The position numbers and the translations under genes are program-made. Shown here piece after piece: positions 1 to 36,000 of a DNA stretch of 64,000 bases. The DNA comes from an uncultured virus (IMG/VR IMGVR_UViG_3300021960_000024) (Duplodnaviria > Heunggongvirae > Uroviricota > Caudoviricetes): IMG/VR virus record IMGVR_UViG_3300021960_000024. One strand, given 5' to 3'. The notes under the pieces were generated by a model. It made no database searches and was not told where the DNA came from. It saw nothing but the letters and a program-made list of their open reading frames with translations. The number at the start of each line of letters is the position of its first letter. Positions within the stretch are counted from its first letter, which is position 1.

Positions 1-744
1 AAGAACGTATTGTACATCACCCTAGAGATGGCAGAGGAACGCATTGCAGAACGTATTGATGCAAACCTCATGAATGTGTCTATGGAAGACTTGCATAGTT
101 TACCCAAGACAATGTATGATACCAAGATCAATAAAATCATCAAGGAGACGAATGGACAGTTGGTCATCAAGGAATATCCTACTGCATCCGCACATTCCGC
201 ACACTTTAGGGGACTAATCAAGGAACTCGCTATCAAGAAGAGTTTCAAGCCAGATATCATCTTCATAGATTATCTGAATATCTGTGCATCATCACGATTC
301 AAGGGACAAGCAAATGTCAATTCGTACATGTATATCAAGTCGATTGCAGAAGAATTACGAGGACTTGCAGTTGAAACAAACGTCCCTATTATGTCTGCAA
401 CACAAACGACACGCTCTGGGTTCTCCAATTCCGATGTGGGCCTTGAAGATACCAGTGAGAGTTTTGGACTACCGGCTACTGCTGACCTCATGTTTGCACT
501 CATTAGTAACGAAGAACTAGAGGCCGCAAATCAGATTGCGGTGAAACAGTTAAAGAACCGATACAATGATCCGACTATGAACAAACGCTTTGTCATTGGT
601 ATTGATCGTGGAAAGATGCGACTTATGGACCTAGATGAGAGCCAACAGGATGGACTTGCGGATAGTAACCAGACAGAGGAGAAGGATGACTTCGAGTCGC
701 CCACATTTGACAAGACAGAGTTTGGAGAGGGTTGGAAGGTATGA
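1..744 (+). CDS. gp41: T4 gp41-like replicative DNA helicase (DnaB family), C-terminal part, 5'-truncated by the window
   Basis: Motifs YITLEMAEERIAERIDAN, IFIDYLNI, ATQTTRSG, SESFGLPATADLMFAL and KQLKNRYND are characteristic of T4-like gp41. Confidence 0.96.
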   Translation, partial: KNVLYITLEMAEERIAERIDANLMNVSMEDLHSLPKTMYDTKINKIIKETNGQLVIKEYPTASAHSAHFRGLIKELAIKKSFKPDIIFIDYLNICASSRFKGQANVNSYMYIKSIAEELRGLAVETNVPIMSATQTTRSGFSNSDVGLEDTSESFGLPATADLMFALISNEELEAANQIAVKQLKNRYNDPTMNKRFVIGIDRGKMRLMDLDESQQDGLADSNQTEEKDDFESPTFDKTEFGEGWKV

Positions 745-19960: not shown

Positions 19961-22900
19961 ATGGCACAAAAAACTAATCTTAACGCAGCACCGTACTTTG
20001 ATGATTTTAATGCAGATAATAATTATCACAGAATTCTCTTTCGGCCGGGATATGCAGTTCAGGCAAGAGAGTTAACGCAACTTCAAAGTGCATTACAACA
20101 TCAAATTGAAGCACATGGAAGTCACATTTTTCGTGAGGGCGCAGTGGTTGTGCCGGGTCAAGGAACGACTCAAGAATATTATAGTTTGAAACTCGCAAGT
20201 ACATTTAATGGTCAAGAGGTTGATCCTTCACAATATTATAACGTAGACAATCCTACAACTATTACAGGTGTAACAACGGGTGTTACCGCAAAGGTTATTG
20301 GTTTTGCAGCTGCGACGACGACAGATCAACCACTCCTTTATCTTTCATATGAACGTGCGGGAACTGACTTTGAAACTACAACTTTTGCTGATAATGAAAA
20401 TCTTACTGCTAATACTGCAATATCACATTCAACAGCAAGTTATGCTGCAAATGTTGCATCTGTTACAACATACAATTCTGTGTATAGTGTCGCTGCAGGA
20501 TCAACCTTAGCACAACTTGCAAGTGCAGAAGGTCCAGCATCAAGAACAGGTCTTGCGTTTCGCATAGAATCTGGTATTTACTATATTCGTGGTTTCTTTG
20601 TTAACAACCTAGAAGAAACTCTAGTTCTTAATAATTATGATAGAACTTATACGGGAACAGTTGGGTTTAAAGTAAGCGAAACTATTGTTACACCAGAAGA
20701 TGCAGAGTCTCTATTAGATAATTCTACAGGGTCAACTAACTATGCTGCGAAAGGCGCACATAGATTAAGTGTTTCTGTTGCACTCTCTGCTATTACGACT
20801 TCAACGGACACAACCAATTTTATCGCTCTGGTTGATCTCAAAGATGGTAAATCATCTATAATTGGTCGCCGCACGCCATATTCTCAACTTGCTGATGAAT
20901 TTGCAAGAAGGACTAATGATGAATCTGGAAGTTATACGGTTCGACCATTTGAATTTACCATAGGTGAATCAGTAGATGTTAGTGTAGGTAACGATAATCT
21001 ACAGGGTAGATATACTGTGGGTGCGACAACTGATGATGGTAACATCGCTAGCAGCGAGCTGTTATCTCTTACCATATCACCGGGTAAAATGTACGTCAGG
21101 GGTTATGAAATTGATAAGGTTCGAACTACCATAAAAGATATTTCTAAAGCAAGAGATTTTGACACTACTAATGCTGGTATTACAACTTTTGACATTGGTA
21201 ATTATGCACTCATTACCAATGTATACAATACTCCAGACATTACACAAATATCTGGAGAAACTACTGCATTCAATACTGTACAATTCTATGATGCAACAAA
21301 TACTACTAGAGGTTCTGCAAACGGTAACTTAATTGGTGTAGGTCGAGCTAGAGGAATTGAATATCATTCAGGTACAGCTGGAGCGACTGCATTGTCGCCG
21401 GCGGCTCAATATAAATTATATCTTTTTGATATACGGCCATTTACAAAACTAACTTTGAGTGGCACTCCTTCACCAACACTTCTTGCAACACACACAAACG
21501 GTGGTGTATTAATCACGGGTGTGACTTCTGGTGCTAAAGGTTATGTATATGCAGATGGAACTTCTGGAACTTCAGTAAATCTAATTTCTGTAGTTGGTAC
21601 ATTTAGAGCCGGAGAAGAGATTACATCTTCCGATTCTGCTGAAACAGGTGGAATTGTTGAGAATAGTAGTGATGTAGATATTACCGTAACTAATTCAGAA
21701 ACTTTTACTTTTAATGATTTTAAACAGGTTTATATGGAGGATGCAGATAGTGGTCAAGATTTTACTGCTGATCTTGTATTTAGAAGCGCCTTTGGACTAC
21801 AATCAATCAGACTAGAAGATAGTGTTACTAGAGCAGATGGTAGTATTATAACTGAAGAAGATGGCGGTGATTATCTCATCCTAGAAGATTATGTTGCACA
21901 GGGTTTGCAAGATACAGAAAAAAATCTCGCAGTATTTAGACTTCCACGAGGTGGTATTAAAACACTTCTGACCGCAACTAATTCTGGTTTAAGTGATACG
22001 CAATATACAGTTCGTAGACAGTTTATTGGAATTACAAACAGTTCTGGTGTTGTTACCTTTAATGCGGGTACAAATGAAACATTTTTATCTCACAGTGAAG
22101 CAGACTATACATTATCTATTCTTACTGCTGGTGGTGGAACAGGAGAACAGGGTGATCTCGTTAGTATTTCTGGTAAAATTAGTGGTGCCGGAACATCAAC
22201 TCTTACTATTACAGATGCATCTATCTTGGGAAGTGCAGCAAAAATAAAACTTACTGCGACAATTCTTAAAACTTCTGTTCAATCAAAGACTAAAACTACT
22301 AAGCTTATGAAACAACTAAAGGTAACTTCTGGAACAACAGATGCCTATGGAACTCGTCCAACAGATGACACTATTTCCCTTGGGCGTGGGGATGTGTTTA
22401 ATCTAGTCGCAGTTTTTGACTCAGAGGAAGCAAGCACGGATGCACTTGCTCCAGAATTTACTACAAGTAATCAATCAGGAACATTTACCAGAGGTGAAAA
22501 AATCACTGGTGCGACAAGTGGCGCAACTGCAAGAATTGTTGATATTACATCTCCCATGAGTTATGTTTTATATACTTCACTTTACTTTGTATCGGGAGAA
22601 ACAATCACTGGTGAAAGCTCCGGTGCAACTGCTACTGTCGGAACTCTTACAGATGGTAGTGTGGATATCAAATCTAAATATGCTTTTGATTCCGGTTACG
22701 GCGATAATTTCTATGATATTGCTAGAATTATAAGAAAAGGTTCTGAACCCGCACCCACAGGAAGATTGCTCATTATATATGATTATTTTGAACATGGTAC
22801 GGGAGACATGTTAACAGTCGACTCTTATGTTGATGTTGCTAATCAAATGAACTATGAAGATATTGAACGTTCATTAATTGATGCATATGATTTTAGGCCA

Positions 22901-24313
22901 AAGGTTGAAGATATTGCTGGTACATCAAGAACACTAGGGATTATTGATGAAATTACAGGAAATTCTTTTGACTTCTACTCTAGACAATATGATGGTGCTG
23001 GTGCATCAATTTCTGATTTTGTCAAGCCCGGTTCTAATATTCAATCAGACTTTGAGTTTTATCTTGGAAGGAAAGACGTAGTTGTAATTGATGACACTGG
23101 AACAATTAGTATTATTGAAGGATCGTCATCAACTTCGCCAGTAAAACCTGACATTCCATCAAATTCTGTGAAACTTGCTGATTTAAATATTCCACCATTT
23201 ACTCGTAGGCCGGAAAATGTAACAATTGAAAGAACAAGAAATCAAAGATTTACCATGAAAGATATTGGTAAACTTAGCCGACGACTTGGTAATGTTGAAA
23301 AAATGACAACTCTAAATCTATTGGAAAGAGATGCTTTAGGTTTTGAGACGTTGGATGCTAACGGACTGAGTAGATTTAAGTCAGGAATTGTTGTTGATAA
23401 TTTCCAAGGTCATAAAGTTGGTGATGCCTTTCATCCAGACTATAAAAACTCTATGGACTTTTCAGAGGGAACACTTCGTCCAATTCATGTTTCTAAATCC
23501 ATCGATTTAGAAGAAAATGTTTCGACTGATTCTGCAAGAACTTCTGCTGGTTATCAGAAGACAGGTGATCTTATAACTCTTCCATATACAGAAGTGGTGT
23601 TAACAGAACAACCATTTGCTAGTACTGTTGAAAGAGTTGCACCGTTCATGACTGCGACATGGAAAGGTGTAATGACCATAGACCCAACTCAGGATAATTG
23701 GATGGAAACAGAAATTGCTCCCCAGTTGATTATTAACCGTGAGGGTAACTATGATGCAGTTGTTGCTGCTATTGGTAATAATATGGGTAGTGTTTGGAAC
23801 TCATGGCAAACAACTTGGTCTGGAACTGTTCAGAGAGATGATGGAGTACCTGCTCGACCACCCGTGGAGGATTGGGGCTGGGCCGACGACGGCAACGATG
23901 GCTGGTGCTTGACTTATAATATGAAAGTTATGTTAGAAAATAATATTTTGATTAATGTTAATAAATTGAAACTTGGTGATAAGATTATGAATAATAGTGG
24001 ATCAACCATAATTCAAGAACTCATATTTAATCATATGAGAGAAGGCTATTATATTATTAACGGTGAATTGGAAATTACCAACGATCATCCCATATTAACT
24101 AATGGTGTATGGAAGAGAACAGAAGACCTACTTATTGGTGATGATATAAATGGAATTCGAGTTGATACTAAACAATATATTTCAAAAACTACGAAAACAG
24201 TAAGTATTGTTACCCAATCAGATGATTATAATGTATATTGTAATGAAAATTTATATACCGTGCATGGTAGATACAAATTATTTCTCCAACAAGAAGATAG
24301 GAGCGCTGCATAA
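19961..24313 (+). CDS. VrlC/DUF4815-type virion structural protein, N-terminal part, with C-terminal Hint domain
   Basis: MAQKTNLN.APYFDDF...ILFRPG.AVQARELTQLQS, ARRT.DESG.Y, FTMKDIGKL, RFKSGIVVDNF; terminal ~120 aa Hint domain. Confidence 0.88.
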   Translation: MAQKTNLNAAPYFDDFNADNNYHRILFRPGYAVQARELTQLQSALQHQIEAHGSHIFREGAVVVPGQGTTQEYYSLKLASTFNGQEVDPSQYYNVDNPTTITGVTTGVTAKVIGFAAATTTDQPLLYLSYERAGTDFETTTFADNENLTANTAISHSTASYAANVASVTTYNSVYSVAAGSTLAQLASAEGPASRTGLAFRIESGIYYIRGFFVNNLEETLVLNNYDRTYTGTVGFKVSETIVTPEDAESLLDNSTGSTNYAAKGAHRLSVSVALSAITTSTDTTNFIALVDLKDGKSSIIGRRTPYSQLADEFARRTNDESGSYTVRPFEFTIGESVDVSVGNDNLQGRYTVGATTDDGNIASSELLSLTISPGKMYVRGYEIDKVRTTIKDISKARDFDTTNAGITTFDIGNYALITNVYNTPDITQISGETTAFNTVQFYDATNTTRGSANGNLIGVGRARGIEYHSGTAGATALSPAAQYKLYLFDIRPFTKLTLSGTPSPTLLATHTNGGVLITGVTSGAKGYVYADGTSGTSVNLISVVGTFRAGEEITSSDSAETGGIVENSSDVDITVTNSETFTFNDFKQVYMEDADSGQDFTADLVFRSAFGLQSIRLEDSVTRADGSIITEEDGGDYLILEDYVAQGLQDTEKNLAVFRLPRGGIKTLLTATNSGLSDTQYTVRRQFIGITNSSGVVTFNAGTNETFLSHSEADYTLSILTAGGGTGEQGDLVSISGKISGAGTSTLTITDASILGSAAKIKLTATILKTSVQSKTKTTKLMKQLKVTSGTTDAYGTRPTDDTISLGRGDVFNLVAVFDSEEASTDALAPEFTTSNQSGTFTRGEKITGATSGATARIVDITSPMSYVLYTSLYFVSGETITGESSGATATVGTLTDGSVDIKSKYAFDSGYGDNFYDIARIIRKGSEPAPTGRLLIIYDYFEHGTGDMLTVDSYVDVANQMNYEDIERSLIDAYDFRPKVEDIAGTSRTLGIIDEITGNSFDFYSRQYDGAGASISDFVKPGSNIQSDFEFYLGRKDVVVIDDTGTISIIEGSSSTSPVKPDIPSNSVKLADLNIPPFTRRPENVTIERTRNQRFTMKDIGKLSRRLGNVEKMTTLNLLERDALGFETLDANGLSRFKSGIVVDNFQGHKVGDAFHPDYKNSMDFSEGTLRPIHVSKSIDLEENVSTDSARTSAGYQKTGDLITLPYTEVVLTEQPFASTVERVAPFMTATWKGVMTIDPTQDNWMETEIAPQLIINREGNYDAVVAAIGNNMGSVWNSWQTTWSGTVQRDDGVPARPPVEDWGWADDGNDGWCLTYNMKVMLENNILINVNKLKLGDKIMNNSGSTIIQELIFNHMREGYYIINGELEITNDHPILTNGVWKRTEDLLIGDDINGIRVDTKQYISKTTKTVSIVTQSDDYNVYCNENLYTVHGRYKLFLQQEDRSAA
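23906..24268 (+). other. Hint (Hedgehog/intein-like) autoprocessing domain
   Basis: Block A C-L-T-Y-N-M-K-V with Cys1; ..KLKLGDKI; block B ITNDHPI (TxxH); W.RTEDLLIGD; terminal TVHG where inteins have HN. Confidence 0.82.
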
Positions 24314-26781
24314 TGGTAGTTAGAACTTACAACGCAACGCAACAAACTAGAACTGGTGTTCTCACCGAGGTGTTTGAGGACATTGAGTATTCTAGTGATG
24401 GGTTTAGGTCTATTGCTAAAACTGCTATTCCATATGCTCGTTCAAAAACAATTACCTTCGAAGCTAAAAGTTTAAAACCATTTACAAAACTGTATGTGTT
24501 TTTTGATAAACAAGTGGTCAATAAGTATGTGACGCCGGGCGATAGTGGTGCCGTTGGAACTGCTTTCTCAAACTTCTCTGATGTTGAAACTCCTGTTGCT
24601 GGTAGTACATTAATTTCTGATGGTGTTGGTAATTGTGAAGGAACTTTTACTATTCCCAATCCAAGAGTTGCTGGCAATCCTAAGTTTGCAACTGGTGATA
24701 TTGATTTTGTAATAACAGCAGACCCAAATAACAAACAAGTTGGCGACGGCGCAAATGAAATTGTTGCAAGAGAAACTTATGCAGACGCAACTTATTCTGC
24801 TAAGGGTATATTAGATACACAACAAGAAACTATTATTGCAACAAGAAATGCAATCGTAAGTACAACAGACCTTTTTGAAGAAGGTGAAGTTATTGTTGGG
24901 TCTGAATTTGTGCCTCCTCGTATGGACCCATTGGCGCAGACTTTTATTGTTTTGGATACTGATGTTAAAAACGATAATGTTAGTGGTGCATTTGCAACTT
25001 CTTGTGATGTATTCTTTTTTGAAAAGGATAATACATATCCTGTGACAATGGAAATTCGTAATGTGGTTAATGGAGTGCCCGGACCAAAAATTCTTCCATT
25101 TGGTAGAAAAACATTACAATCTTCAGAGGTTACAACATCTACAGATGGAAATACTGCAACTACCTTTACATTTGACTCTCCCGTTTATATGCAGGGTGGA
25201 ACAGAATATTCAATTTGTCTATTAGCTAATACTCCAGAATATAAGGTATGGATTTCTGATCTTGGAACACAAGATACTTCTGGTAATGAAATCACAGACC
25301 AACCTCACGTTGGTGTTCTTTTTAAGAGTTCAAATAATAGCACATGGGTTCCATCGCCCACACAAGACATGAAATTTTCTCTCAAGAGAGCTAAGTTTGA
25401 TACGAATGCTGCTGGTTCAGTTACATTACAAAATCAAACACTTCCTGCAAAAAACCTTAATTTGAACCCTTTAGAGATGACAGACAATAGTACAACATTA
25501 AAAATTAATCATGCCGGTCATGGTATGTATTCTACTGCAAATAACGTCACTATTGATGAAGTTAAGTCTGGTGCATCAACAACACTTAATGGTGCAATTT
25601 CTGCCACTGCAACATCGATTACTCTTACGAGTGGAACAAACTTTGATGACACTAGTGGCAAGTATTCTAGAGATGCATCCAACGTGTACTATATTAAAAT
25701 TGATGATGAGATTATTAGTTATACCACTATTTCTGGAACGGGTATCACTAGTGCAACACGGGGTGCAAATAGCACAACAGCTGTATCTCATGCAAATGGT
25801 GCAACTGTTGAACTATATCAAATTCATAAAGTTCCATTGTATGATATCAATAAAACACACACTGCAATTGGTAATATTCAAACTGACAGCTACACAATTG
25901 CTCTTTCAACTACCCCTGTGGTAGATGGTGATGCTGGTACATCTACTTTCGGTGGAAGTTTAGCCACCGCAACTGAAAATGCACAATATGATGTTTCTAC
26001 TTTTATTATGGGTACTGTAGTTCCGTCAAAAACTAAAATTGAGACGGCAATATTGACAACTTCTGGAACAAGTCCAAGTGGTTCTGAGACTCCATTTACA
26101 AAATCAACAACTAATAGGGTTGTTCCAATTGGTGACAATTATTATTGGACAAGTAATAATTTGGTTGCGTCTGGTATTAATGAAACAAATGAAATGTCTG
26201 GTACAAAATCTTTGAGTGTTCCAATAACTTTAACTTCAGAAATTGATTCACTATCTCCTGTACTTGACTTGCAGAGGATGTCAATGATCGCTGTATCAAA
26301 CAAGATAAATCAGATTGATTCCTCATCAGATGTATATCCTACATCTACATACAAAGCAATGACAGAACCAGAGGGTGATAATCATTCAGCAATTTATCTC
26401 ACTAAGAAAATTGAACTAGAAACTCCTGCAACTTCTCTAAGAGTTATTTTAGATGCTCGACGGTTTCCCGAAGCAGATATTAAATTATTATTTAAAACTC
26501 TACGAGTTGATGATGCATCCAACTTTGAGGAGATGGGTTTTAGATTTTTTAACGATGATGGAACTGTCACTGGGTCTGGTGGGCCAGATGTCATAACTCG
26601 ACCTTCTCTCACTATTAATGATTATATCGAACATGAATACACTGCTGGTGTGACAGATGATGGTATTGGTTCTCCCCTAGAAGATTTTACTTCTTTTCAG
26701 ATTAAAATTGTTATGAGGGCAACAAATCAAACTGTTGCACCATTAATTAAAAATCTTCGTGTTCTAGCTTTGGCCACATAA
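24313..26781 (+). CDS. VrlC/DUF4815-type virion structural protein, C-terminal part
   Basis: QTRTG, PYARS..I.F....LKPFT.LY.FFD, DPLAQTF, GVLFKSSN.STW.P...DMKF, FTSFQIKIVM...P.IKNLRVLALA; these motifs normally continue the upstream protein. Confidence 0.85.
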   Translation: MVVRTYNATQQTRTGVLTEVFEDIEYSSDGFRSIAKTAIPYARSKTITFEAKSLKPFTKLYVFFDKQVVNKYVTPGDSGAVGTAFSNFSDVETPVAGSTLISDGVGNCEGTFTIPNPRVAGNPKFATGDIDFVITADPNNKQVGDGANEIVARETYADATYSAKGILDTQQETIIATRNAIVSTTDLFEEGEVIVGSEFVPPRMDPLAQTFIVLDTDVKNDNVSGAFATSCDVFFFEKDNTYPVTMEIRNVVNGVPGPKILPFGRKTLQSSEVTTSTDGNTATTFTFDSPVYMQGGTEYSICLLANTPEYKVWISDLGTQDTSGNEITDQPHVGVLFKSSNNSTWVPSPTQDMKFSLKRAKFDTNAAGSVTLQNQTLPAKNLNLNPLEMTDNSTTLKINHAGHGMYSTANNVTIDEVKSGASTTLNGAISATATSITLTSGTNFDDTSGKYSRDASNVYYIKIDDEIISYTTISGTGITSATRGANSTTAVSHANGATVELYQIHKVPLYDINKTHTAIGNIQTDSYTIALSTTPVVDGDAGTSTFGGSLATATENAQYDVSTFIMGTVVPSKTKIETAILTTSGTSPSGSETPFTKSTTNRVVPIGDNYYWTSNNLVASGINETNEMSGTKSLSVPITLTSEIDSLSPVLDLQRMSMIAVSNKINQIDSSSDVYPTSTYKAMTEPEGDNHSAIYLTKKIELETPATSLRVILDARRFPEADIKLLFKTLRVDDASNFEEMGFRFFNDDGTVTGSGGPDVITRPSLTINDYIEHEYTAGVTDDGIGSPLEDFTSFQIKIVMRATNQTVAPLIKNLRVLALAT

Positions 26782-27031: not shown

Positions 27032-30000
27032 ATGTCATATCAATCACTTGATCTTGGTTCAGTTGCAAATGATGGCACGGGCGATACACTTCGTGAATCA
27101 GGTGATAAAACTAATGACAACTTTCTTGAAATTTATAACTTACTTGGTGACGGCACAGACCTGTCAAGTGGTATCAGTGCAACTGCAACAGTAGTAACTT
27201 TAACTGCACCAACAATTTCTGGTGTTGTCGGTGGAACAATTACATCGGCCACAATTACAACTCTAACAGGAACTACTTTTAACGCTGGAACTCTTGCATT
27301 AGTTGCTGGTTCTATTACAGACAGTTCTGGTGCGATTAGTTTTGGTAATGAGAACCTAACAACAACAGGATCAGTTACAGCTGCGTCATTAGACATATCT
27401 GGTAATGTTGATATAGATGGTACACTTGAAACTGATGCACTAACGATTGATGGTGTTTCACTCTCTGAAACTATTGCTGACACAGTTGGAGCAATGGTTA
27501 GTTCCAATACAGAAACAAATATCGCAGTAACATATGATGATGCAGATAACACATTAGACTTTGTTATTGGTACACTCAACCAAAGTACATCAGGAAATGC
27601 AGGCACTGCTACTGCACTTGAAACTGCTAGAACTATTCATGGTGTGTCATTTGATGGTACTGCTAATATTGATCTTTCTGAAGTCGTACAAGATACAGTT
27701 GGTGCGATGTTCTCTAGTAATACAGAGACAAACATTACTGCAACATATCAGGATGCAGATGGAACAATAGACCTTGTTATTGGTACACTCAATCAAGATA
27801 CAACTGGTAATGCTGCAACTGCAACTGCATTAGAAACTGCAAGAACTATTGGTGGAACTTCGTTTGATGGTAGTGCAAATATTGCTGTTGCCCTTTCTGC
27901 AACTGCTACTGCACTGGAAACTGCTAGAACTATTCACGGAGTTTCTTTTGATGGTACTGCCAATATTGATCTAACAGAAGTTGTACAAGACACAGTGGGA
28001 GCCATGTTCTCTAGTAACACGGAGACAGGTATCACAGTAACCTATCAGGATGCAGATGGCACTATTGATCTTGTAGTGGGAACTCTCAATCAGGACACAA
28101 CGGGTAACGCAGCAACTGCAACCGCATTGGAAACATCACGGACTATTGGTGGTGTATCCTTTGATGGTACAGGCAATATCAACCTGCCGGGTGTAAATAC
28201 AAGTGGTAACCAAGATACAAGTGGTACGGCTGCAAAAGTTACCGTCACAGATAGCAATGCAAACACAAATTTCCCAGTGGTTTTCCACGATGAGTCGAAT
28301 GCATTGTTGGATGACACAGGTGCATTACGTTACAATCCAAGCACAGGCGAACTACTTGTTCCAAATCTTACTGTAGCAGGAACGACTACACAGGTCAACA
28401 CCGTTACAATGAACGCACAAAATGCTGTCGTCTTTGAGGGTGCAACGGCAAATGACTTTGAGACAACTCTAACCATCACAGACCCAACTGCTGATAGAAC
28501 AATTACCATGCCAGATGCAACTGGTACTATGGCACTAACATCTAGTGATATTACAGGTAACGCAGCAACTGCAACCGCACTTGCAACGGCTAGAACCATT
28601 CATGGTGTATCGTTTGATGGCACTGGTAACATAGACCTCACAGAAGTTGTACAAGATACTGTTGGAGCTATGTTTAGTTCTAACACAGAAACAGGTATTA
28701 CTGTAACTTATCAAGATGCAGATGGCACCATAGACCTCGTTGTTGGTACACTCAATCAGGACACTACAGGTAATGCTGCAACTGCTACCGCATTGGAAAC
28801 TGCTAGAACCATTCACGGTGTAAGTTTTGATGGCACTGGCAATATTGACCTCACTGAAGTTGTACAAGATACCGTTGGAGCCATGTTTAGTTCTAATACA
28901 GAGACAGGTATTGCCGTATCGTATGAAGATGGTGATGGAACCATTGACTTAGTAGTTGGAACTCTAAATCAAGACACAACGGGTAATGCTGCAACTGCTA
29001 CTGCACTAGAAACAGCAAGAACTATTGGTGGAACTTCGTTTGATGGTACTGCAAATATTGCCGTTGCACTTTCTGCAACTGCTACTGCACTGGAAACTGC
29101 TAGAACTATTCATGGTGTATCATTCGATGGCACTGCTAACATTGACCTTACTGAAGTTGTACAAGATACTGTTGGAGCTATGTTTAGTTCTAACACAGAA
29201 ACAAATATTACTGCAACATATCAGGATGCAGATGGAACCATAGACCTTGTTATTGGTACACTCAATCAGAACACAACTGGAAATGCTGCAACTGCTACTG
29301 CTTTAGAAACTGCAAGAACAATTCATGGAGTTTCCTTTGATGGCACTGCCAATATTGACCTCACCGAAGTAGTACAAGATACCATTGGAGCTATGTTCAG
29401 TTCTAACACTGAAACAGGGGTGACTGTAACTTATCAGGATGCTGACGGTACGATTGATGTTGTAGTTGGAACTTTGAATCAGGATACCACAGGTAATGCT
29501 GCAACTGCTACCGCATTAGAAACTGCAAGAACTATTGGTGGGACTTCATTTGATGGTACTGCAAATATTGCTGTTGCTCTTGCTGACACTGCCACTGCAC
29601 TTGCAACTGCTAGGACTATTCATGGAGTGTCCTTTGATGGTACTGCCAATATTGATCTCACTGAAGTCGTACAAGATACTGTTGGAGCTATGTTTAGTTC
29701 TAACACAGAAACAAATATTACTGCAACATATCAGGATGCAGATGGAACCATAGACCTTGTTATCGGTACACTTAATCAAGATACCACAGGAAGTGCTGCA
29801 ACTCTAACTACTGCAAGAACAATTGGTGGAGTGTCTTTTGATGGTAGTGCTAACATTAACCTTCCCGGCGTAAATACTGCTGGTAATCAGAATACAAGTG
29901 GAACAGCCGCAGTCGCAACGGTTGCAACAACGGTTACTATTACGGATAATGAATCTACAGACGAAAACAACGCTATTGTCTTTACTGCTGGTGGTGATGT

Positions 30001-33000
30001 TGATGGTGGTAATCTTGGATTAGAATCTGATGGAACACTTACATATAATCCTAGCACTGGTAAGATTACTGCAACGGGATTTGTGGGTGCATTGACAGGT
30101 GATGTTACTGGTGATGTTACAGGTAATGCTGACACTGCAACCGCACTTGCAACGGCGAGAACTATTCATGGTGTGTCCTTTGACGGCACTGGTAACATTG
30201 ACCTCACCGAAGTAGTACAAGACACTGTTGGAGCTATGTTTGGTTCCAACACAGAGACAGGTATTACAGTAACTTATCAAGATGCTGACGGCACTATTGA
30301 TCTTGTGGTGGGAACACTTAACCAAGATACAACTGGAACCGCAGCAAAAGTTACGGTCACCGATAGCACTGCGAATACAAACTTCCCCGTGACCTTCCAC
30401 GATGAGTCGAATTCATTGTTGGATGATACAGGTGCATTGCGTTACAACCCAAGTACAGGAACTCTACTTGTTCCAAATCTTGTTGTAGCAGGAACGACTA
30501 CTCAAGTTGATACTGTGACTATGAATGCAGAGAACGCAGTCATATTTGAAGGTGCAACTGCTGACGATTTCGAAACAACTCTAACCATCACAGACCCAAC
30601 TGCTGACCGTACACAGAGATTGCTCAACCAAAGTGGTTATATCCCCCTTCTTGCGGCGGTTACAACCACTGCAATTACATCCACACCAGAAGAGCTTAAT
30701 ATTCTGGACGGTGCGACTGTTGTAGTTGGTGAGATTAATGCACTGGACTTGGGTTCGACGGCTGTTGGTAATGCTATTGCTAGTAAGGCGGTCATACTGG
30801 ACTCCAACAAAGATTATACAGGAATACGAAACTTTACCGTAAGTGGCGAACTTGACGCAGCAACAGGTGATTTCTCTGGTAACGTAGATGTTGATGGTAC
30901 ACTAGAAGCAGATGCAATCACTGTCAACGGTACTGCACTGGATGAGTTCATTTCCGATACAGTTGGTGCGATGGTCAGTAGTAATACTGAAACAGGTATT
31001 GCAGTGACTTATCAGGATGCTGACAATACGATAGACTTTGCCCTCAATGCCGCACAAACTACTATAACAAGTTTGTTGGCCACTGATATCAAAATTGGTG
31101 AGGATGACCAGACCAAGATTGACTTTGAGACTGCTGACACAATTAACTTTTATGCAGGAAATGAAAAACAATTAATACTTACAGATGGTGCTTTAACTCC
31201 CGGCGCTGATAATATTTTAGACCTTGGTAGTAGTAGTGTAGAATTTAAAGATGCCTACTTTGATGGTACAGTTACATCAGATGCATTTGCTGGTCCTCTA
31301 ACGGGTAATGTTACAGGTAATGCTGATACCGCAACTGCACTCGCAACTGCTAGGACAATTGGCGGTGTATCATTTGATGGTAGTGCTAATATTAATTTGC
31401 CGGGTGTCAATACTGCTGGTAATCAGAATACAAGTGGGACAGCAGCAGTTGCAACAACAGTAACCATAACGGACAATGAATCTACAGACGAAGACAACGC
31501 TATTGTGTTTACTGCTGGTGGAGATGTTGACGGTGGTAATCTTGGATTAGAATCAGACGGAACCTTAACATACAACCCAAGCACTGGTAAGATTACTGCT
31601 ACAGGATTTGTAGGAACACTAACTGGTAATGTAACAGGCAATACATCTGGTACTGCTGCTACGGTCACATCTGCTGCTCAAACAAATATCACTTCAGTAG
31701 GAACATTAACCGCACTTCAAGTAGATAATATTAATATCAACGGTAATGCAATAACAAGTACTGCTGGTACGGACTTAACAATCACTCCATTAGCAGGACA
31801 ACAGATTGTTCTTGATGGAACAATAGTAGTTGATGCTGGTGTGGTTACAGGTGCAACAAGCATTACATCAACAGCATTTGTTGGTGATATAACTGGTGAT
31901 GTTACAGGTAATGCAGATACGGCAACCACACTTGCAACTGCTAGAACAATTGGTGGTACATCATTTGATGGTTCTGCAAATATTGATGTTGCACTTGCTA
32001 CACTTGCTACCACTGTTACTATTACTGATAATGAATCTACGAACGAGGACAACGCCCTTATCTTCGCTGCTGGTGGCGATGTTGACGGAGGTAACTTAGG
32101 TCTAGAATCAGATGGTACACTAACATACAATCCTAGTACTGGTAAAGTAACTGCCACGGGATTTGTAGGAACACTTACTGGTGATGTTACAGGTGATGTT
32201 ACAGGTAATGCAGATACGGCAACTGTACTTGCAACGGCTAGAACTATCGGTGGTGTATCATTTAATGGTAGTGCTAACATTAACCTACCTGGCGTTAACA
32301 CTGCTGGTAACCAGAATACCTCTGGTAGTGCTGCAACTCTAACTACTGCTAGAACAATTGGTGGAACCTCATTTGATGGTAGTGCAAATATTGATGTTGC
32401 ACTAGCAACACTTGCAACAACAGTCACTATTACTGATAATGAATCTACGGACGAGGACAACGCCCTTATCTTTACTGCTGGTGGCAATGTTGACGGAGGT
32501 AACTTAGGTCTAGAATCAGATGGTACACTAACATACAACCCAAGTACAGGTAAAGTAACTGCAACTGGATTTGTAGGAACATTAACTGGTGATGTTACAG
32601 GTGATGTTACAGGTGATGTAACAGGTAATGCTGATACAGCAACTGTACTTGCGACAGCCAGAACTATTGGTGGTGTATCCTTTAACGGTAGTGCTAACAT
32701 TGACCTTCCCGGCGTAAATAGTGCTGGTAACCAGAATACCTCTGGTTCTGCTGCAACTCTAACTACCGCAAGAACTATCGGTGGAACCTCGTTTGATGGT
32801 AGTGCAAATATTGATGTTGCACTAGCAACACTTGCTACTACTGTTACAGTCTCCGATAGCACTGCGAATACAAACTTCCCAGTGGTCTTCAACGATGAAT
32901 CTAATGCACTTTTGGATGATACTGGTGCATTGCGTTACAACCCAAGTACAGGAACTCTACTTGTTCCAAATCTTGTTGTAGCAGGAACGACTACTCAGGT

Positions 33001-36000
33001 TGACACTGTTACTATGGAGGCAGCGAATGCTATAGTATTTGAGGGTGCAACTGCTGACGCATATGAAACAACCCTTACGATCACAGACCCAACTGCTGAT
33101 CGTACTATTACTTTGCCTGATGTAACAGGTACAGTTGCATTAACTTCTAGTAACATTACAGGAAGTGCTGCAACTCTAACTACTGCTAGAACAATTGGTG
33201 GGGTTTCGTTTGATGGTTCTGCTAACATTAACCTTCCCGGTGTAAATATTGCTGGTAATCAGAACACAACAGGAAGTGCTGCAACTCTAACGACAGCTAG
33301 AACAATTGGTGGGGTTTCGTTTGATGGTTCTGCTAACATTAACCTTCCCGGTGTAAATAGTGCTGGTAATCAGAACACAAGTGGTACTGCTGCTACTGTT
33401 ACTGGTGCAGCTCAAACAAATATCACTTCATTGGGTACACTAACCGCCCTTACAGTTGATAACATTATCATTAATGGAACAAACATTGGTCACACTTCTG
33501 ACACAGATTCTATAGCGATTGCCTCAAATGGTGTGGTTACGTTCTCACAGGCACCAGTATTCCCCGATGGGTCCATTGCGATTGCTGATCTAGATATCGA
33601 CGGCGCAACAGACATAGGGGCTGCACTTGCTGATGCAGACTTGTTCATCGTTGATGATGGTGCTGGTGGTACAAATAGAAAATCAACACTTGCAAGACTA
33701 AAAACTTATATGTCTGCTGGGTCAACTGTTTCTGCCGATGATATCAATGCTGGGGATGCCGCAGTTACCATAACAACATCCAGTGGTAACATTACAATTG
33801 ATGCTGCAGCCGACGATAGTGACATTATCCTCAAGGGAACAGATGGTACTGTAGATACAACATATCTAACGATTGATGGTAGTGCTGCTGGTGAAGCAAC
33901 ATTTAACGCAGGGATTGTGATTGCTGATGCTGGAACTATCGGTAGTGCCAGTGACAAAGATGCCATTGCGATTGCTTCTGATGGTGTTGTTACCATGAAT
34001 CAGATACCAGTTTTCAGTGCCGGTATTAATGTTTCTGGTGGTAGTATTGCAGGAACACTTTCTACTGCTGCTCAAGGTAATATTACATCACTTGGTACAC
34101 TCACCGCTCTAACTGTTGACAATGTTGTTATCAATGGCGCAACAATAGGCCACGGAGATGACACTGATTTGATGACGGTTGCTGATGGTATATTGACCGT
34201 TGCTGGTGAAGTTTCTATGACCACTCTAGATATTGGTGGAACCAATGTTACATCAACTGCAGCTGAACTTAATGTTCTAGATGGTATTACTGCCGTGGTT
34301 GGAGAACTTAACGCACTGGACTTGGGTTCGACTGCCGTTGGTAATGCCATTGCAAGTAAAGCGGTCATACTGGACTCCAATAAAGATTATACAGGAATAC
34401 GAAACTTTACAATTGATGGCGACTTAGATGTTGGTGATGACCTCAAGCTAACTTCAGATGCTGCTCTAATATCATTTGGCGCAAATTCAGAAATCACAAT
34501 GACTCACGTTCATGATACGGGTCTTACTCTAACACATACTGCTACGGGTGACAATACGCCTATGGTGCTTCAACTGAAGTCCGAAGAGGATATTGTTGAA
34601 GCAAACGAGGTTATTGCATCCATAGAGTTTGCTGCCGGTGACTCAGATGGTACTGATGGTGCTACCGTTGCTGCTGGTATTCATGCAATCGCAGAAGGTA
34701 CATTCTCTGCTAGTGCGAATGCAACGAAACTAGTATTTACAACGGGTGTGTCTGAGACTGCTGCATCCTCTGCAACTGCCAAGATGACATTAAGTTCTGC
34801 TGGACTTCTAACCATTGCAGATGACCTTGTTATTAAAGATGGTGGTACAATTGGTGTTGCAAGCGATGCAGATGCAATTACAATCGCAAGTAATGGTCAA
34901 GTAACTCTTACACAAACACTAATAGGAACTGCGTTAGATATCTCTGGTGACGTAGATGTTGATGGTACACTAGAAGCAGATGCAATCACTGTCAATGGCA
35001 CTGCACTTGCAGAATTCATTAGTGATACTGCTGGTGCGATGGTTAGTTCTAACACAGAAACGGGTATTGCCGTAACTTATCAGGACGCTGACAATACCAT
35101 AGACTTTGCAATTAATGCTGCACAAACCACTATCACAAGTTTGCTGGCCACCGATATTAAGATTGGTGAAGATGACCAGACCAAGATTGACTTTGAGACT
35201 GCTGACGAAATACACTTCTATGCAGCAAATGCTCATCAGGTTAAAATCGTAGATGGGGCTATTGTTCCCGCAACAGACGATGATGTTGATTTAGGTACGA
35301 GTTCAGCAGAATTTAAGAATGCTTTCTTTGACGGTACAGTTACATCAGATGCATTTGCTGGTCCTCTGACGGGTAATGTTACAGGTAATGCTGATACCGC
35401 TAGCAAGCTTGCAACTGCAAGAACCATAGGTGGTGTATCATTTGATGGTAGTGCTAATATCAACCTTCCCGGTGTAAATAGTGCTGGTAATCAAAATACA
35501 AGTGGTAGTGCTGCAACTCTAACTACCGCAAGAACTATTGGTGGAACCTCGTTTGATGGTTCTGCAAATATTGATGTTGCACTAGCTACACTTGCTACTA
35601 CTGTTACTATCACGGATAACGAATCTACAGATGAAAACAATGCGATCATCTTTGCTGCTGGTGGAGATATTGATGGTGGTAATCTTGGACTAGAATCAGA
35701 TGGAACATTAACATACAATCCTAGTACAGGTAAAGTAACTGCTACAGGATTTGTAGGAACACTAACTGGTAATGTAACAGGCAATACATCTGGTACAGCC
35801 GCAACTGTTACAGGTGCAGCCCAAACAAATATCACTTCAGTAGGTACATTAACCGCACTACAAGTAGATAATATTAACATTAATGGTAATGCTATTACGA
35901 GTACTGCTGGTGTAGACCTAACGATCACGCCATTAACAGGACAACAGATTGTTCTTGATGGTACGATTGTCATTGACGCTGGTGTGGTTACAGGTGCAAC

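What the first reader, a model, noticed from the sequence alone, without database searches (positions are those of the whole stretch)
23840..24400. Virion protein gene split by a non-splicing Hint domain: candidate autoprocessing / covalent-ligation system
Seen: the VrlC/DUF4815-type gene breaks just after WNSWQTTWSG. The first ORF continues through a short GC-rich, acidic/Gly/Trp linker (DWGWADDGNDGW) into a visibly AT-richer ~120-aa Hint domain. That domain has Cys1 at 23906 (residue 1316), a TNDH block B, and ends VHG where inteins have HN, followed by a 15-aa tail. Its stop overlaps the ATG of the second ORF (TAATG), which resumes with QTRTG...DPLAQTF. Known: Hint domains with Cys1 and TxxH but no terminal Asn, as in Hedgehog and some bacterial intein-like domains, cannot splice. 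They form an N-terminal thioester that is hydrolysed or transferred to a nucleophile. From recollection, homologues are usually one continuous protein. Inference: the N-half self-cleaves at Trp-Cys and may be ligated to the C-half, another virion protein or a small molecule/host surface. This would be a Hedgehog-like maturation step in a phage tail protein.
Basis: partly seen in the sequence, partly recalled or inferred. Interest (0 to 1): 0.85.

Follow-up and report, generated by a model that had tools for sequence, protein, structure and literature searches.

The report
Self-cutting Hint cap on split baseplate protein
A marine T4-like phage makes its giant VrlC baseplate protein from two genes, and the first piece ends in an intein-like domain that can probably only cut itself off; this end-cap family is common on particle proteins of uncultured marine phages and I found no description of it.

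Summary
ORF1 (19961-24313) holds the VrlC N-part, a 27-aa acidic Gly/Trp linker, then a 135-aa piece starting at Cys1316. Its stop overlaps the ATG of ORF2 (TAATG), which resumes VrlC. The piece is a complete Hint fold (pLDDT 94; Z 17.5 to the gp41-1 intein) with Cys1 and T-N-D-H. An invariant Gly sits where inteins have the terminal Asn, so it cannot splice.

It belongs to a large family that always ends its protein. Of the 38 best library hits, 37 are C-terminal. In 76 evaluable viral loci, 75 have Cys1 and 71 end in AA or AS. The family is under purifying selection (dN/dS 0.05-0.25). It caps VrlC at two sites, and also tail-fibre-like proteins and a protein encoded next to the portal gene. 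I found it in no isolate phage, PHROG or NCBIfam.

The Hint does not cause the split. Of 21 relatives split at this site, 2 carry the Hint, 4 carry other Cys-led caps and 12 end in a bare low-complexity tail. The most likely mechanism is an N-S acyl shift at Trp1315-Cys1316 followed by self-removal. Nothing supports re-ligation to the C-half. Biochemistry is untested.

The parts
19961..23824 (+). VrlC N-part (residues 1-1288), DUF4815, a T4 gp7-like baseplate protein
   Evidence: Pfam DUF4815 E 5.4e-59. phrog_358 positions 1-1152 of 2056. blastp to Melnitz VrlC residues 2-1331.
23825..23905 (+). Acidic Gly/Trp-rich linker (residues 1289-1315, TVQRDDG...NDGW). It is hypervariable and GC3-rich. 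Trp1315 is the -1 residue of the predicted scissile bond.
   Evidence: GC 0.62 and GC3 0.52 against 0.19-0.21 in the flanks. Linkers differ in L006 and P0153 although their Hints are 99-100% identical. Contigs of run X6 break here.
23906..24268 (+). Hint domain proper (residues 1316-1436): Cys1, His43-x-Arg45, Thr58-Asn-Asp-His61-Pro62, ending His120-Gly121
   Evidence: AF2 pLDDT 94.3. Foldseek and VIA-align place it with inteins, BIL domains and Hedgehog, Z 16.6-17.5. Invariant residues listed.
24269..24310 (+). 14-aa C-terminal helix tail (RYKLFLQQEDRSAA) ending in Ala-Ala
   Evidence: Helix at residues 123-134 in the model. 71 of 76 family loci end in AA or AS.
24299..24303 (+). AGGAG Shine-Dalgarno-like motif for ORF2, lying inside the tail codons of the Hint, 9 nt before the ATG
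   Evidence: Read directly from the sequence.
24311..24315 (+). TAATG stop/start overlap
   Evidence: Identical in L003/L004 and in the X6 contig.
24313..26781 (+). VrlC C-part (822 aa). Its N-terminus MVVRTYNATQQTRTG is homologous to the continuous protein; the DPLAQTF motif is near residue 205.
   Evidence: blastp residues 11-822 to Melnitz 1370-2127. phrog_358 to position 2055. By-eye alignment of the first 15 residues to Melnitz, HTVC008M and L104.

Best explanation
The phage encodes its VrlC baseplate protein as two polypeptides. The first ends in a flexible acidic tether that carries an optional C-terminal Hint cap. After translation the Hint most likely performs only the first intein/Hedgehog step. 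Cys1316 attacks the Trp1315 carbonyl (N-S acyl shift, helped by Thr58/His61), and the thioester is resolved by water or a small thiol. The 135-aa cap is thereby released, leaving VrlC-N ending at its acidic tail. VrlC-N and VrlC-C then assemble non-covalently, as they must in the many relatives that lack the cap. Shown: the fold, the residue pattern, the loss of the Asn needed for splicing, the obligatory C-terminal position, purifying selection, the distribution over several virion proteins, and the independence of split and cap. Inferred: that cleavage actually occurs, and that it ends in hydrolysis. The biological role is open. The cap could be a removable assembly or solubility module, or a tolerated selfish cassette that moves between virion genes.
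For: Fold: pLDDT 94.3, pTM 0.85. Z 17.5, rmsd 1.5 A over 114 residues to the gp41-1 intein; Z 16.9 to Hedgehog 1at0; Z 16.6 to the C. thermocellum BIL 2lwy.

Residues: Cys1, His43, Arg45, Asp60, His61, Pro62, Gly121 and Tyr123 are invariant in 58 unique Hints; position 58 is Thr in 43 and Ser in 15.

No splicing: Gly121 occupies the intein Asn position, and only 14 residues follow.

Always terminal: 37 of the 38 best representatives. 75 of 76 evaluable viral loci have 119-145 aa from Cys1 to the stop.

Functional: dN/dS is 0.05-0.25 in 10 pairs, for example 29 synonymous against 6 non-synonymous differences between L014 and L019.

Not a re-joining device: only 2 of 21 site-A-split relatives have it. 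54 of 80 loci cap a protein encoded next to the portal gene, whose downstream gene is unrelated.

ORF2 has its own AGGAG and ATG.

The stop is real.
Against: No biochemical or proteomic evidence of cleavage exists for any member. Conservation of Cys1 and TxxH would equally fit thioester transfer to a specific acceptor. Why selection (dN/dS well below 1) would keep a domain whose only act is to remove itself is unexplained. The invariant His43-x-Arg45, Tyr123 and the conserved helix ending in Ala-Ala have no assigned role and may point to an extra function. The block-F Asp of inteins appears to be Cys/Thr here; this is a by-eye reading of the alignment and was not tested. No isolate phage carries the family, so no virion data are at hand.
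Confidence: 0.6

Rival explanations
1. Thioester transfer. The Hint passes the VrlC-N acyl group to a defined nucleophile, such as a Lys or the N-terminus of VrlC-C, another baseplate protein, or a small molecule. This would be a Hedgehog- or BUBL-like covalent maturation step in the virion.
For: The chemistry is the same as in Hedgehog (1at0) and the Tetrahymena BUBL BIL2 domain (6y75), both among the top structural matches. Strong purifying selection on a domain that otherwise only removes itself. Unexplained invariant residues and a conserved C-terminal helix.
Against: There is no adduct-recognition region comparable to the Hedgehog SRR, only 14 aa. The cap is absent from 19 of 21 relatives with the same split, so ligation cannot be required for VrlC function. 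The downstream ORFs at the two sites share no conserved Cys, Ser or Thr at their N-termini. The family sits on unrelated proteins.
Confidence: 0.13
2. A non-cleaving Hint that stays on the virion as a tethered binding or structural domain at the end of a flexible acidic linker.
For: Purifying selection. A long flexible tether, as used to display domains. The family also ends tail-fibre-like proteins (P0159, P0163, P0024, P0031).
Against: Invariance of exactly the N-terminal reaction residues (Cys1, Thr/Ser58, His61) in 58 of 58 sequences is not expected for a mere binding module. The cap is dispensable in close relatives.
Confidence: 0.15
3. A decaying remnant of an ordinary intein, a split intein whose C-part starts ORF2, or an assembly or frameshift artefact.
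For: Pfam and fold matches are to inteins. ORF2 starts at once after the stop.
Against: dN/dS 0.05-0.25. The fold is complete within ORF1. Gly121 is invariant. ORF2's first residues align with the continuous VrlC of Melnitz, HTVC008M and L104. Independent assemblies show the same stop. The stop-to-start distance ranges from -1 to +32 nt among 21 loci, so there is no conserved frameshift site.
Confidence: 0.02

Closest known systems
Hedgehog/Hog C-terminal autoprocessing domain (HhC; PDB 1at0)
   Same: The Hint lies at the C-terminal end of a cargo protein, starts with Cys, has TxxH and no terminal Asn. The only possible chemistry is therefore N-S acyl shift plus thioester resolution. Z 16.9, rmsd 1.8 A over 118 residues.
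   Different: The Hint is followed by a 14-aa helix only, with no sterol/adduct-recognition region. It occurs in phages, its cargo is a virion protein, and sequence identity is 14%. No acceptor is known.
Bacterial intein-like (BIL) domains (C. thermocellum BIL, PDB 2lwy) and Tetrahymena BUBL BIL2 (6y75)
   Same: Non-intein Hint domains of microbes in variable regions that cleave rather than splice. This is the best PDB sequence-profile match (E 2.9e-4), with Z 16.6-16.8. The DHP after the block-B Thr is shared.
   Different: From my recollection, type A BILs keep the C-terminal His-Asn and sit inside proteins. This family has an invariant His-Gly, is always terminal, and ends in a helix with Ala-Ala.
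Pfam Vint (PF14623; Tetrahymena Vint, PDB 8r2c)
   Same: The only Pfam family reaching its cut-off (30.3 bits for the isolated piece). PDB profile E 3e-4.
   Different: The match covers only profile positions 2-71 of 166. From my recollection, Vint is a domain of eukaryotic vWA proteins.
Intramolecular-chaperone autocleaving C-terminal domains of phage tailspikes and fibres (Peptidase S74 type; seen in the listings of PMC3742443 and PMC8326128)
   Same: A working analogy only: a C-terminal module of a phage structural protein that removes itself.
   Different: The fold and chemistry are unrelated (Ser-Lys dyad, from my recollection). No sequence or structural similarity was found here.
'Fractured genes' with split inteins in marine metagenomes (Dassa et al. 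2009, PMC2677866; passages read)
   Same: A phage-type gene in two pieces with Hint sequence at the break, known from ocean metagenomes.
   Different: In those genes both halves carry intein parts with Asn and a +1 Cys and trans-splice, and a homing endonuclease gene lies between them. Here the Hint is whole and non-splicing, ORF2 carries no intein part, and there is no endonuclease.

Membership tests
HINT superfamily (fold) | Hint beta-fold | tested here: met
   pLDDT 94.3. All of the top 50 VIA-align rows are inteins, BIL or Hedgehog, Z 13.3-17.5.
HINT superfamily (fold) | N-terminal Cys/Ser nucleophile and block-B TxxH | tested here: met
   Cys1 and His61 in 58 of 58, Thr/Ser58 in 58 of 58 unique sequences.
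Inteins (protein splicing) | C-terminal Asn (or Gln/Asp) at the end of the last strand | tested here: not met
   Gly121 aligns with the terminal Asn of gp41-1, MchDnaB-1 and RecA inteins and is invariant.
Inteins (protein splicing) | C-extein with a +1 Cys/Ser/Thr in the same polypeptide | tested here: not met
   A 14-aa tail and then the stop. The family is C-terminal in 37 of the 38 best hits.
Split inteins | C-intein fragment at the start of the downstream protein | tested here: not met
   ORF2 starts with residues that align to continuous VrlC. The Hint fold is complete in ORF1.
Hedgehog/Hog autoprocessing domain | Adduct (sterol) recognition region after the Hint | tested here: not met
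   Only a 14-aa helix follows.
Hedgehog/Hog autoprocessing domain | Transfer of the cargo to a nucleophile other than water | not testable with these tools
   Needs biochemistry or mass spectrometry.
BIL domains, type A | C-terminal His-Asn without a +1 nucleophile (definition recalled, not read here) | tested here: not met
   His-Gly is invariant. The sequence-profile match to 2lwy is weak (E 2.9e-4).
Pfam Vint PF14623 | Score at or above the gathering threshold over the model | tested here: inconclusive
   30.3 bits for the isolated piece and 25.4 bits for the whole protein, against a cut-off of 27. Only profile positions 2-71 of 166 match.
Pretoxin HINT (PT-HINT PF07591) | Toxin domain C-terminal to the Hint | tested here: not met
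   Nothing but the tail follows. PT-HINT scored only 17.1 bits in one relative, P0031.
VrlC / DUF4815 baseplate protein (host gene) | DUF4815 and phrog_358 match, with baseplate-wedge synteny | tested here: met
   Same gene order as HTVC008M.

The most novel reading that the evidence does not exclude
The Hint cap and the other Cys-led caps found at the same position in relatives could be interchangeable 'activation' modules. Each would turn the acidic C-terminus of a virion protein into a thioester, which would then be joined covalently to a partner protein, to the other VrlC half, or to a small or lipid nucleophile during particle assembly. That would be a Hedgehog/BUBL-type covalent maturation system in phage morphogenesis. 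The invariant His43-x-Arg45, Tyr123 and the Ala-Ala-ended helix would serve acceptor choice or disposal of the spent cap.
Probability: 0.12. Interest if true: 0.9.

Novelty: new variant of a known kind. Interest (0 to 1): 0.6.

Why it matters
Hint domains are known as inteins, Hedgehog, BIL domains and pretoxin peptidases. This one is a distinct, well-conserved family. It is terminal, ends His-Gly plus a short helix with Ala-Ala, and always follows a low-complexity acidic tether.

It is common in uncultured marine phages: 326 cluster representatives at E<=1e-3 and at least 107 viral contig stretches. I found it in none of 50,697 isolate phage records, in no PHROG and in no NCBIfam model. None of the seven full-text searches I ran turned up a description.

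The family marks a previously unnoticed post-translational step in phage particle proteins (baseplate, fibre-like proteins and a protein encoded next to the portal gene). It also shows that the VrlC break is a hot spot for swapping end-caps. In addition it offers small (121 aa), naturally non-splicing N-cleaving Hint domains that could be useful as protein-engineering tools. If the thioester proves to be transferred rather than hydrolysed, the family would be the first Hedgehog-like ligation system in viruses of bacteria.

Tried and rejected
1. Complex prediction of the Hint (A1) with ORF2 residues 1-200 returned 'no answer' (score 0.00). This is no evidence either way.

2. I folded the junction region of a continuous homologue (L104, alignment A2) with AF2 to see whether the break lies inside a domain. 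Mean pLDDT was 47.8 and the junction was below 50, so it is uninformative.

3. Split-intein reading with a 7-aa C-intein (MVVRTYN): rejected, because these residues align with continuous VrlC and the +1 residue would be Ala.

4. Programmed frameshift or readthrough at TAATG: rejected, because the stop-to-start spacing ranges from -1 to +32 nt in other loci.

5. Foreign origin inferred from AT-richness: rejected, because GC3 equals that of the host gene.

6. Recent lateral spread remains possible but is not shown. The Hint of the window and of L006 differ by one synonymous change in 405 nt, against dS 0.148 upstream. However, the near-identical tract also runs about 160 nt into ORF2, as ordinary mosaic recombination would give.

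7. tblastn of two family members against 50,697 isolate phage records gave no match.

8. The window's own assembly is not held; the nearest record, G001 (a 23.6-kb fragment), has no match.

9. No second copy exists in the window: tblastn and a family HMM over six frames found only 23906-24310.

10. NCBIfam and PHROGs gave nothing for the Hint piece. The ESM Atlas gave only generic Hint clusters.

11. The C-terminal Ala-Ala might act as an ssrA-like degradation tag for the spent cap. This is my own speculation from recollection and is untested.

12. Rows dropped: L023 (Met at position 1, stop inside the tail, probably a frameshifted contig), L084 and L085 (distant; the Hint in L085 is internal) were left out of the tree and the conservation table. 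The host-region dN/dS values for L044-L014 and L055-L019 compare unrelated proteins and should be ignored.


Full report
**Anatomy.**
The window is the structural region of a T4-like marine myovirus. Baseplate wedge genes (phrog_219, phrog_438) lie before the locus. A 76-aa virion protein (phrog_473) and a 3839-aa repeat-rich tail-fibre ORF follow it. This is the gene order of Pelagibacter phage HTVC008M.
- ORF1 (19961-24313, 1450 aa) carries DUF4815 and matches phrog_358 positions 1-1152 of 2056. ORF2 (24313-26781, 822 aa) matches the same PHROG to position 2055.
- In Methylophilales phage Melnitz (2127 aa) and in HTVC008M (2001 aa) the protein is one chain. ORF1 residues 3-1288 align with Melnitz 2-1331, and ORF2 residues 11-822 align with Melnitz 1370-2127.
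- Between these two stretches ORF1 holds a 27-aa linker (TVQRDDG...NDGW) and a 135-aa piece starting at Cys1316.
- The stop TAA overlaps the ATG of ORF2. An AGGAG motif lies 9 nt upstream of that ATG, inside the last codons of ORF1.

**What the 135-aa piece is.**
- Pfam gives Vint, a Hint family, at 30.3 bits for the isolated piece (cut-off 27) over profile positions 2-71 of 166. PHROGs and NCBIfam give nothing.
- AlphaFold2 with a 33-row alignment gives pLDDT 94.3 and pTM 0.85: an all-beta domain (residues 1-121) followed by a helix (123-134).
- Foldseek finds only Hint folds at the top: BIL2 of Tetrahymena BUBL1, MchDnaB-1 and gp41-1 inteins, the C. thermocellum BIL, and Hedgehog 1at0, with TM 0.71-0.75.
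- VIA-align gives Z 17.5 and rmsd 1.5 A over 114 residues to gp41-1. Model residues 1..121 correspond to the whole intein 1..125, to 1..145 of MchDnaB-1 and to 1..440 of RecA.
- The fold is therefore complete within ORF1, and His120-Gly121 stand where inteins have His-Asn. Without that Asn, and with only 14 residues after it, neither C-terminal cleavage nor splicing is possible.
- ORF2's first residues (MVVRTYNATQQTRTG) align with AVIRTTTETETGTRSRRG of Melnitz and with RRQRQFNAVRQSRTG of the continuous contig L104. ORF2 therefore carries no intein fragment.

**It is a family, and it always ends its protein.**
- A full scan of 1.84 billion cluster representatives found 326 proteins at E<=1e-3 and 68 at E<=1e-10. 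In 37 of the 38 best (E<=1e-21) the match ends within 13 residues of the C-terminus. The exception is P0037.
- In IMG/VR, 107 stretches encode relatives and 80 loci were kept. In 76 of them both the start of the Hint and the end of the ORF lie within the locus. Of these 76, 75 start with Cys, 75 have 119-145 residues from Cys1 to the stop, and 71 end in Ala-Ala (60) or Ala-Ser (11).
- In 58 unique sequences the invariant residues are Cys1, Leu2, Met6, His43, Arg45, Tyr48, Glu54, Leu55, Ile57, Asn59, Asp60, His61, Pro62, Thr98, Val110, Tyr117, Val119, Gly121 and Tyr123. Position 58 is Thr (43) or Ser (15).
- All members are preceded by a Gly/Asp/Ser-rich low-complexity stretch.
- Pairwise dN/dS of the Hint is 0.05-0.25 at dS 0.46-1.5. 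It is a working domain, not a remnant.
- Neither the window's Hint nor a member that caps the protein encoded next to the portal gene matches any of 50,697 isolate phage records.

**Hosts of the cap.**
- Of the 80 loci, 23 are VrlC genes. The window and L006/L007 are broken at 'site A' (Melnitz 1331|1370). Most of the other 21 are broken at 'site B' (Melnitz about 1514-1527|1543-1545), just before the conserved P-[IL]-A-Q-[ST]-F motif.
- In all 21 VrlC loci where the downstream DNA is present, the next ORF resumes VrlC after -1 to +32 nt.
- Fifty-four loci cap a protein of mostly 586-816 aa (a few reach 1455 aa) encoded between the portal gene and a phrog_13678/major-head gene pair. That next gene is unrelated and lies 51-89 nt away.
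- Library proteins add tail-fibre-like hosts (P0024, P0031, P0159, P0163) and further site-A examples whose Hints are 99%, 82% and 71% identical (P0153/P0154, P0155, P0162).
- On a quick tree (126 columns, so low resolution) the site-B Hints need three changes of label. L044, L053 and L055 nest inside the clade of Hints that cap the protein encoded next to the portal gene (SH-aLRT 95). The cap has therefore moved between host genes.

**The split does not depend on the Hint.** I baited IMG/VR with VrlC-C (ORF2 residues 201-496), which does not select for the cap, and obtained 51 loci:

| Outcome | Loci |
|---|---|
| Continuous through site A | 24 |
| Cannot be judged | 6 |
| Split at site A | 21 |

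The 21 split loci divide as follows:

| C-terminal end of the N-half | Loci |
|---|---|
| Hint cap (the contigs of L006/L007) | 2 |
| Other ~120-aa caps that also begin with Cys after the tether (GKVLC.. in L086 and L090; GKIIC.. with a hydrophobic end in L089 and L097), without Pfam or PHROG match | 4 |
| Bare acidic or low-complexity tail, such as ...DENDDD or ...GDGDGDG | 12 |
| Not examined | 3 |

The two-gene form works without the cap, and the C-terminus of VrlC-N is a swap site for end-caps. Continuous relatives have a non-acidic linker at this place. The acidic tails of cap-less forms could therefore be what is left after a cap was lost. Which came first, the split or the cap, is not settled.

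**Is the sequence real?** The same stop/start is seen in several independent sources:
- L003/L004, from two other metagenomes, about 93% identical overall.
- P0153/P0154.
- A contig of an independent 2024 run that is identical over 23911-24534.

No indel at the junction was reported in the four runs I laid on the region. One CGG insertion lies in the linker, and contigs break in the linker.

The linker is the unstable part. Three different linkers (20-32 aa, with -1 residue Trp, Val or Glu) precede Hints that are 99-100% identical. Its GC3 is 0.52, against 0.19-0.21 elsewhere in the gene. I have no explanation for this.

**Mechanism.**
- The residues needed for the first step of intein/Hedgehog chemistry are invariant, and those for the later steps are absent.
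- The best reading is a cis N-S acyl shift at Trp1315-Cys1316 followed by loss of the cap. VrlC-N would then end in its acidic tail, and the two halves would associate non-covalently (confidence 0.6).
Hedgehog and BUBL are precedents for it, from my recollection.
- Against transfer: no adduct-recognition region is present, close relatives do without the cap, and the downstream ORFs share no conserved N-terminal nucleophile. I put it at about 0.13.
- A retained, non-cleaving display domain is a further possibility, at about 0.15.
- The complex prediction of the Hint with ORF2 gave no answer.

**Literature.**
- I ran seven full-text searches.
- I read passages of PMC3556154, PMC5526547, PMC5259590, PMC7029224, PMC12379486, PMC13114773, PMC2677866 and PMC3482391.
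- They yielded ordinary inteins in phage enzymes, pretoxin HINT domains, split-intein 'fractured genes', and VrlC described as the gp7 substitute of the pelagimyophage baseplate. None describes a terminal Hint cap on virion proteins.
- Subscription journals are not covered by these searches.
- Four earlier notes of this scan, on other genomes, describe the same kind of cap and the KIIC-type module. I reached my reading before seeing them, and they are not independent evidence.

Noticed in passing
L086:2020-2397, L090, L089:445-825, L097:170-550: Relatives split at the same VrlC site carry other ~120-aa C-terminal caps after the acidic tether. These caps also begin with Cys (GKVLC|GELYRQGLL... 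and GKIIC|TAMNNMYGFG..., the latter with a hydrophobic C-end). They have no Pfam or PHROG match. The L089 and L097 caps are 43% identical; the KVLC and KIIC types are not significantly alike (E 1.6).
   Followed up: partly
L089:846-2352 and L097:579-1873: Two extra genes lie between the VrlC halves in these relatives: a membrane fatty-acid desaturase (PF00487, E 7e-13) and an Asp/Asn beta-hydroxylase-like protein (PF05118, E 7e-12).
   Followed up: partly
window 23825-23905: The linker before the Hint has GC3 0.52 against 0.19-0.21 in the rest of the gene. It differs in length and sequence among phages whose Hints are 99-100% identical, and metagenome contigs break there. Unexplained.
   Followed up: partly
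L019:4267-6381 and about 53 further loci: A low-complexity-rich protein with no annotated family, mostly 586-816 aa, is encoded between the portal gene and a phrog_13678/major-head gene pair. It has a conserved N-terminal motif (...DDIPAQLSEGEFVFPADVV...) and is the commonest host of the Hint cap.
   Followed up: partly
P0164 (1884 aa): This VrlC N-part carries a second Hint-like segment ending ...GLLAHN|R (Pfam Hom_end_hint) just before the tether and the terminal Hint, so two Hint modules lie in tandem.
   Followed up: no
P0060, P0062, P0067, P0069, P0071, P0073: Distant family members are small proteins (200-340 aa) with an N-terminal twin-arginine-like or hydrophobic signal, a Gly-rich stretch, and then the Hint. 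They may be secreted bacterial proteins.
   Followed up: no
P0037 (800 aa), L085: Two relatives have the Hint in the middle of a longer ORF (P0037 residues 224-342; L085 with 361 aa after Cys1). These are exceptions to the terminal rule.
   Followed up: no
window 27032-38551: A 3839-aa tail-fibre ORF is built from many repeated units (tandem periods of 84, 111, 213, 297 and 420 nt; 23 stretches match phrog_6722).
   Followed up: no
window 23935-24333 (run X15): Contigs of a metatranscriptomic library cover parts of the Hint and the stop/start junction with 1-5 differences. DNA carry-over cannot be excluded, so transcription is not shown.
   Followed up: no
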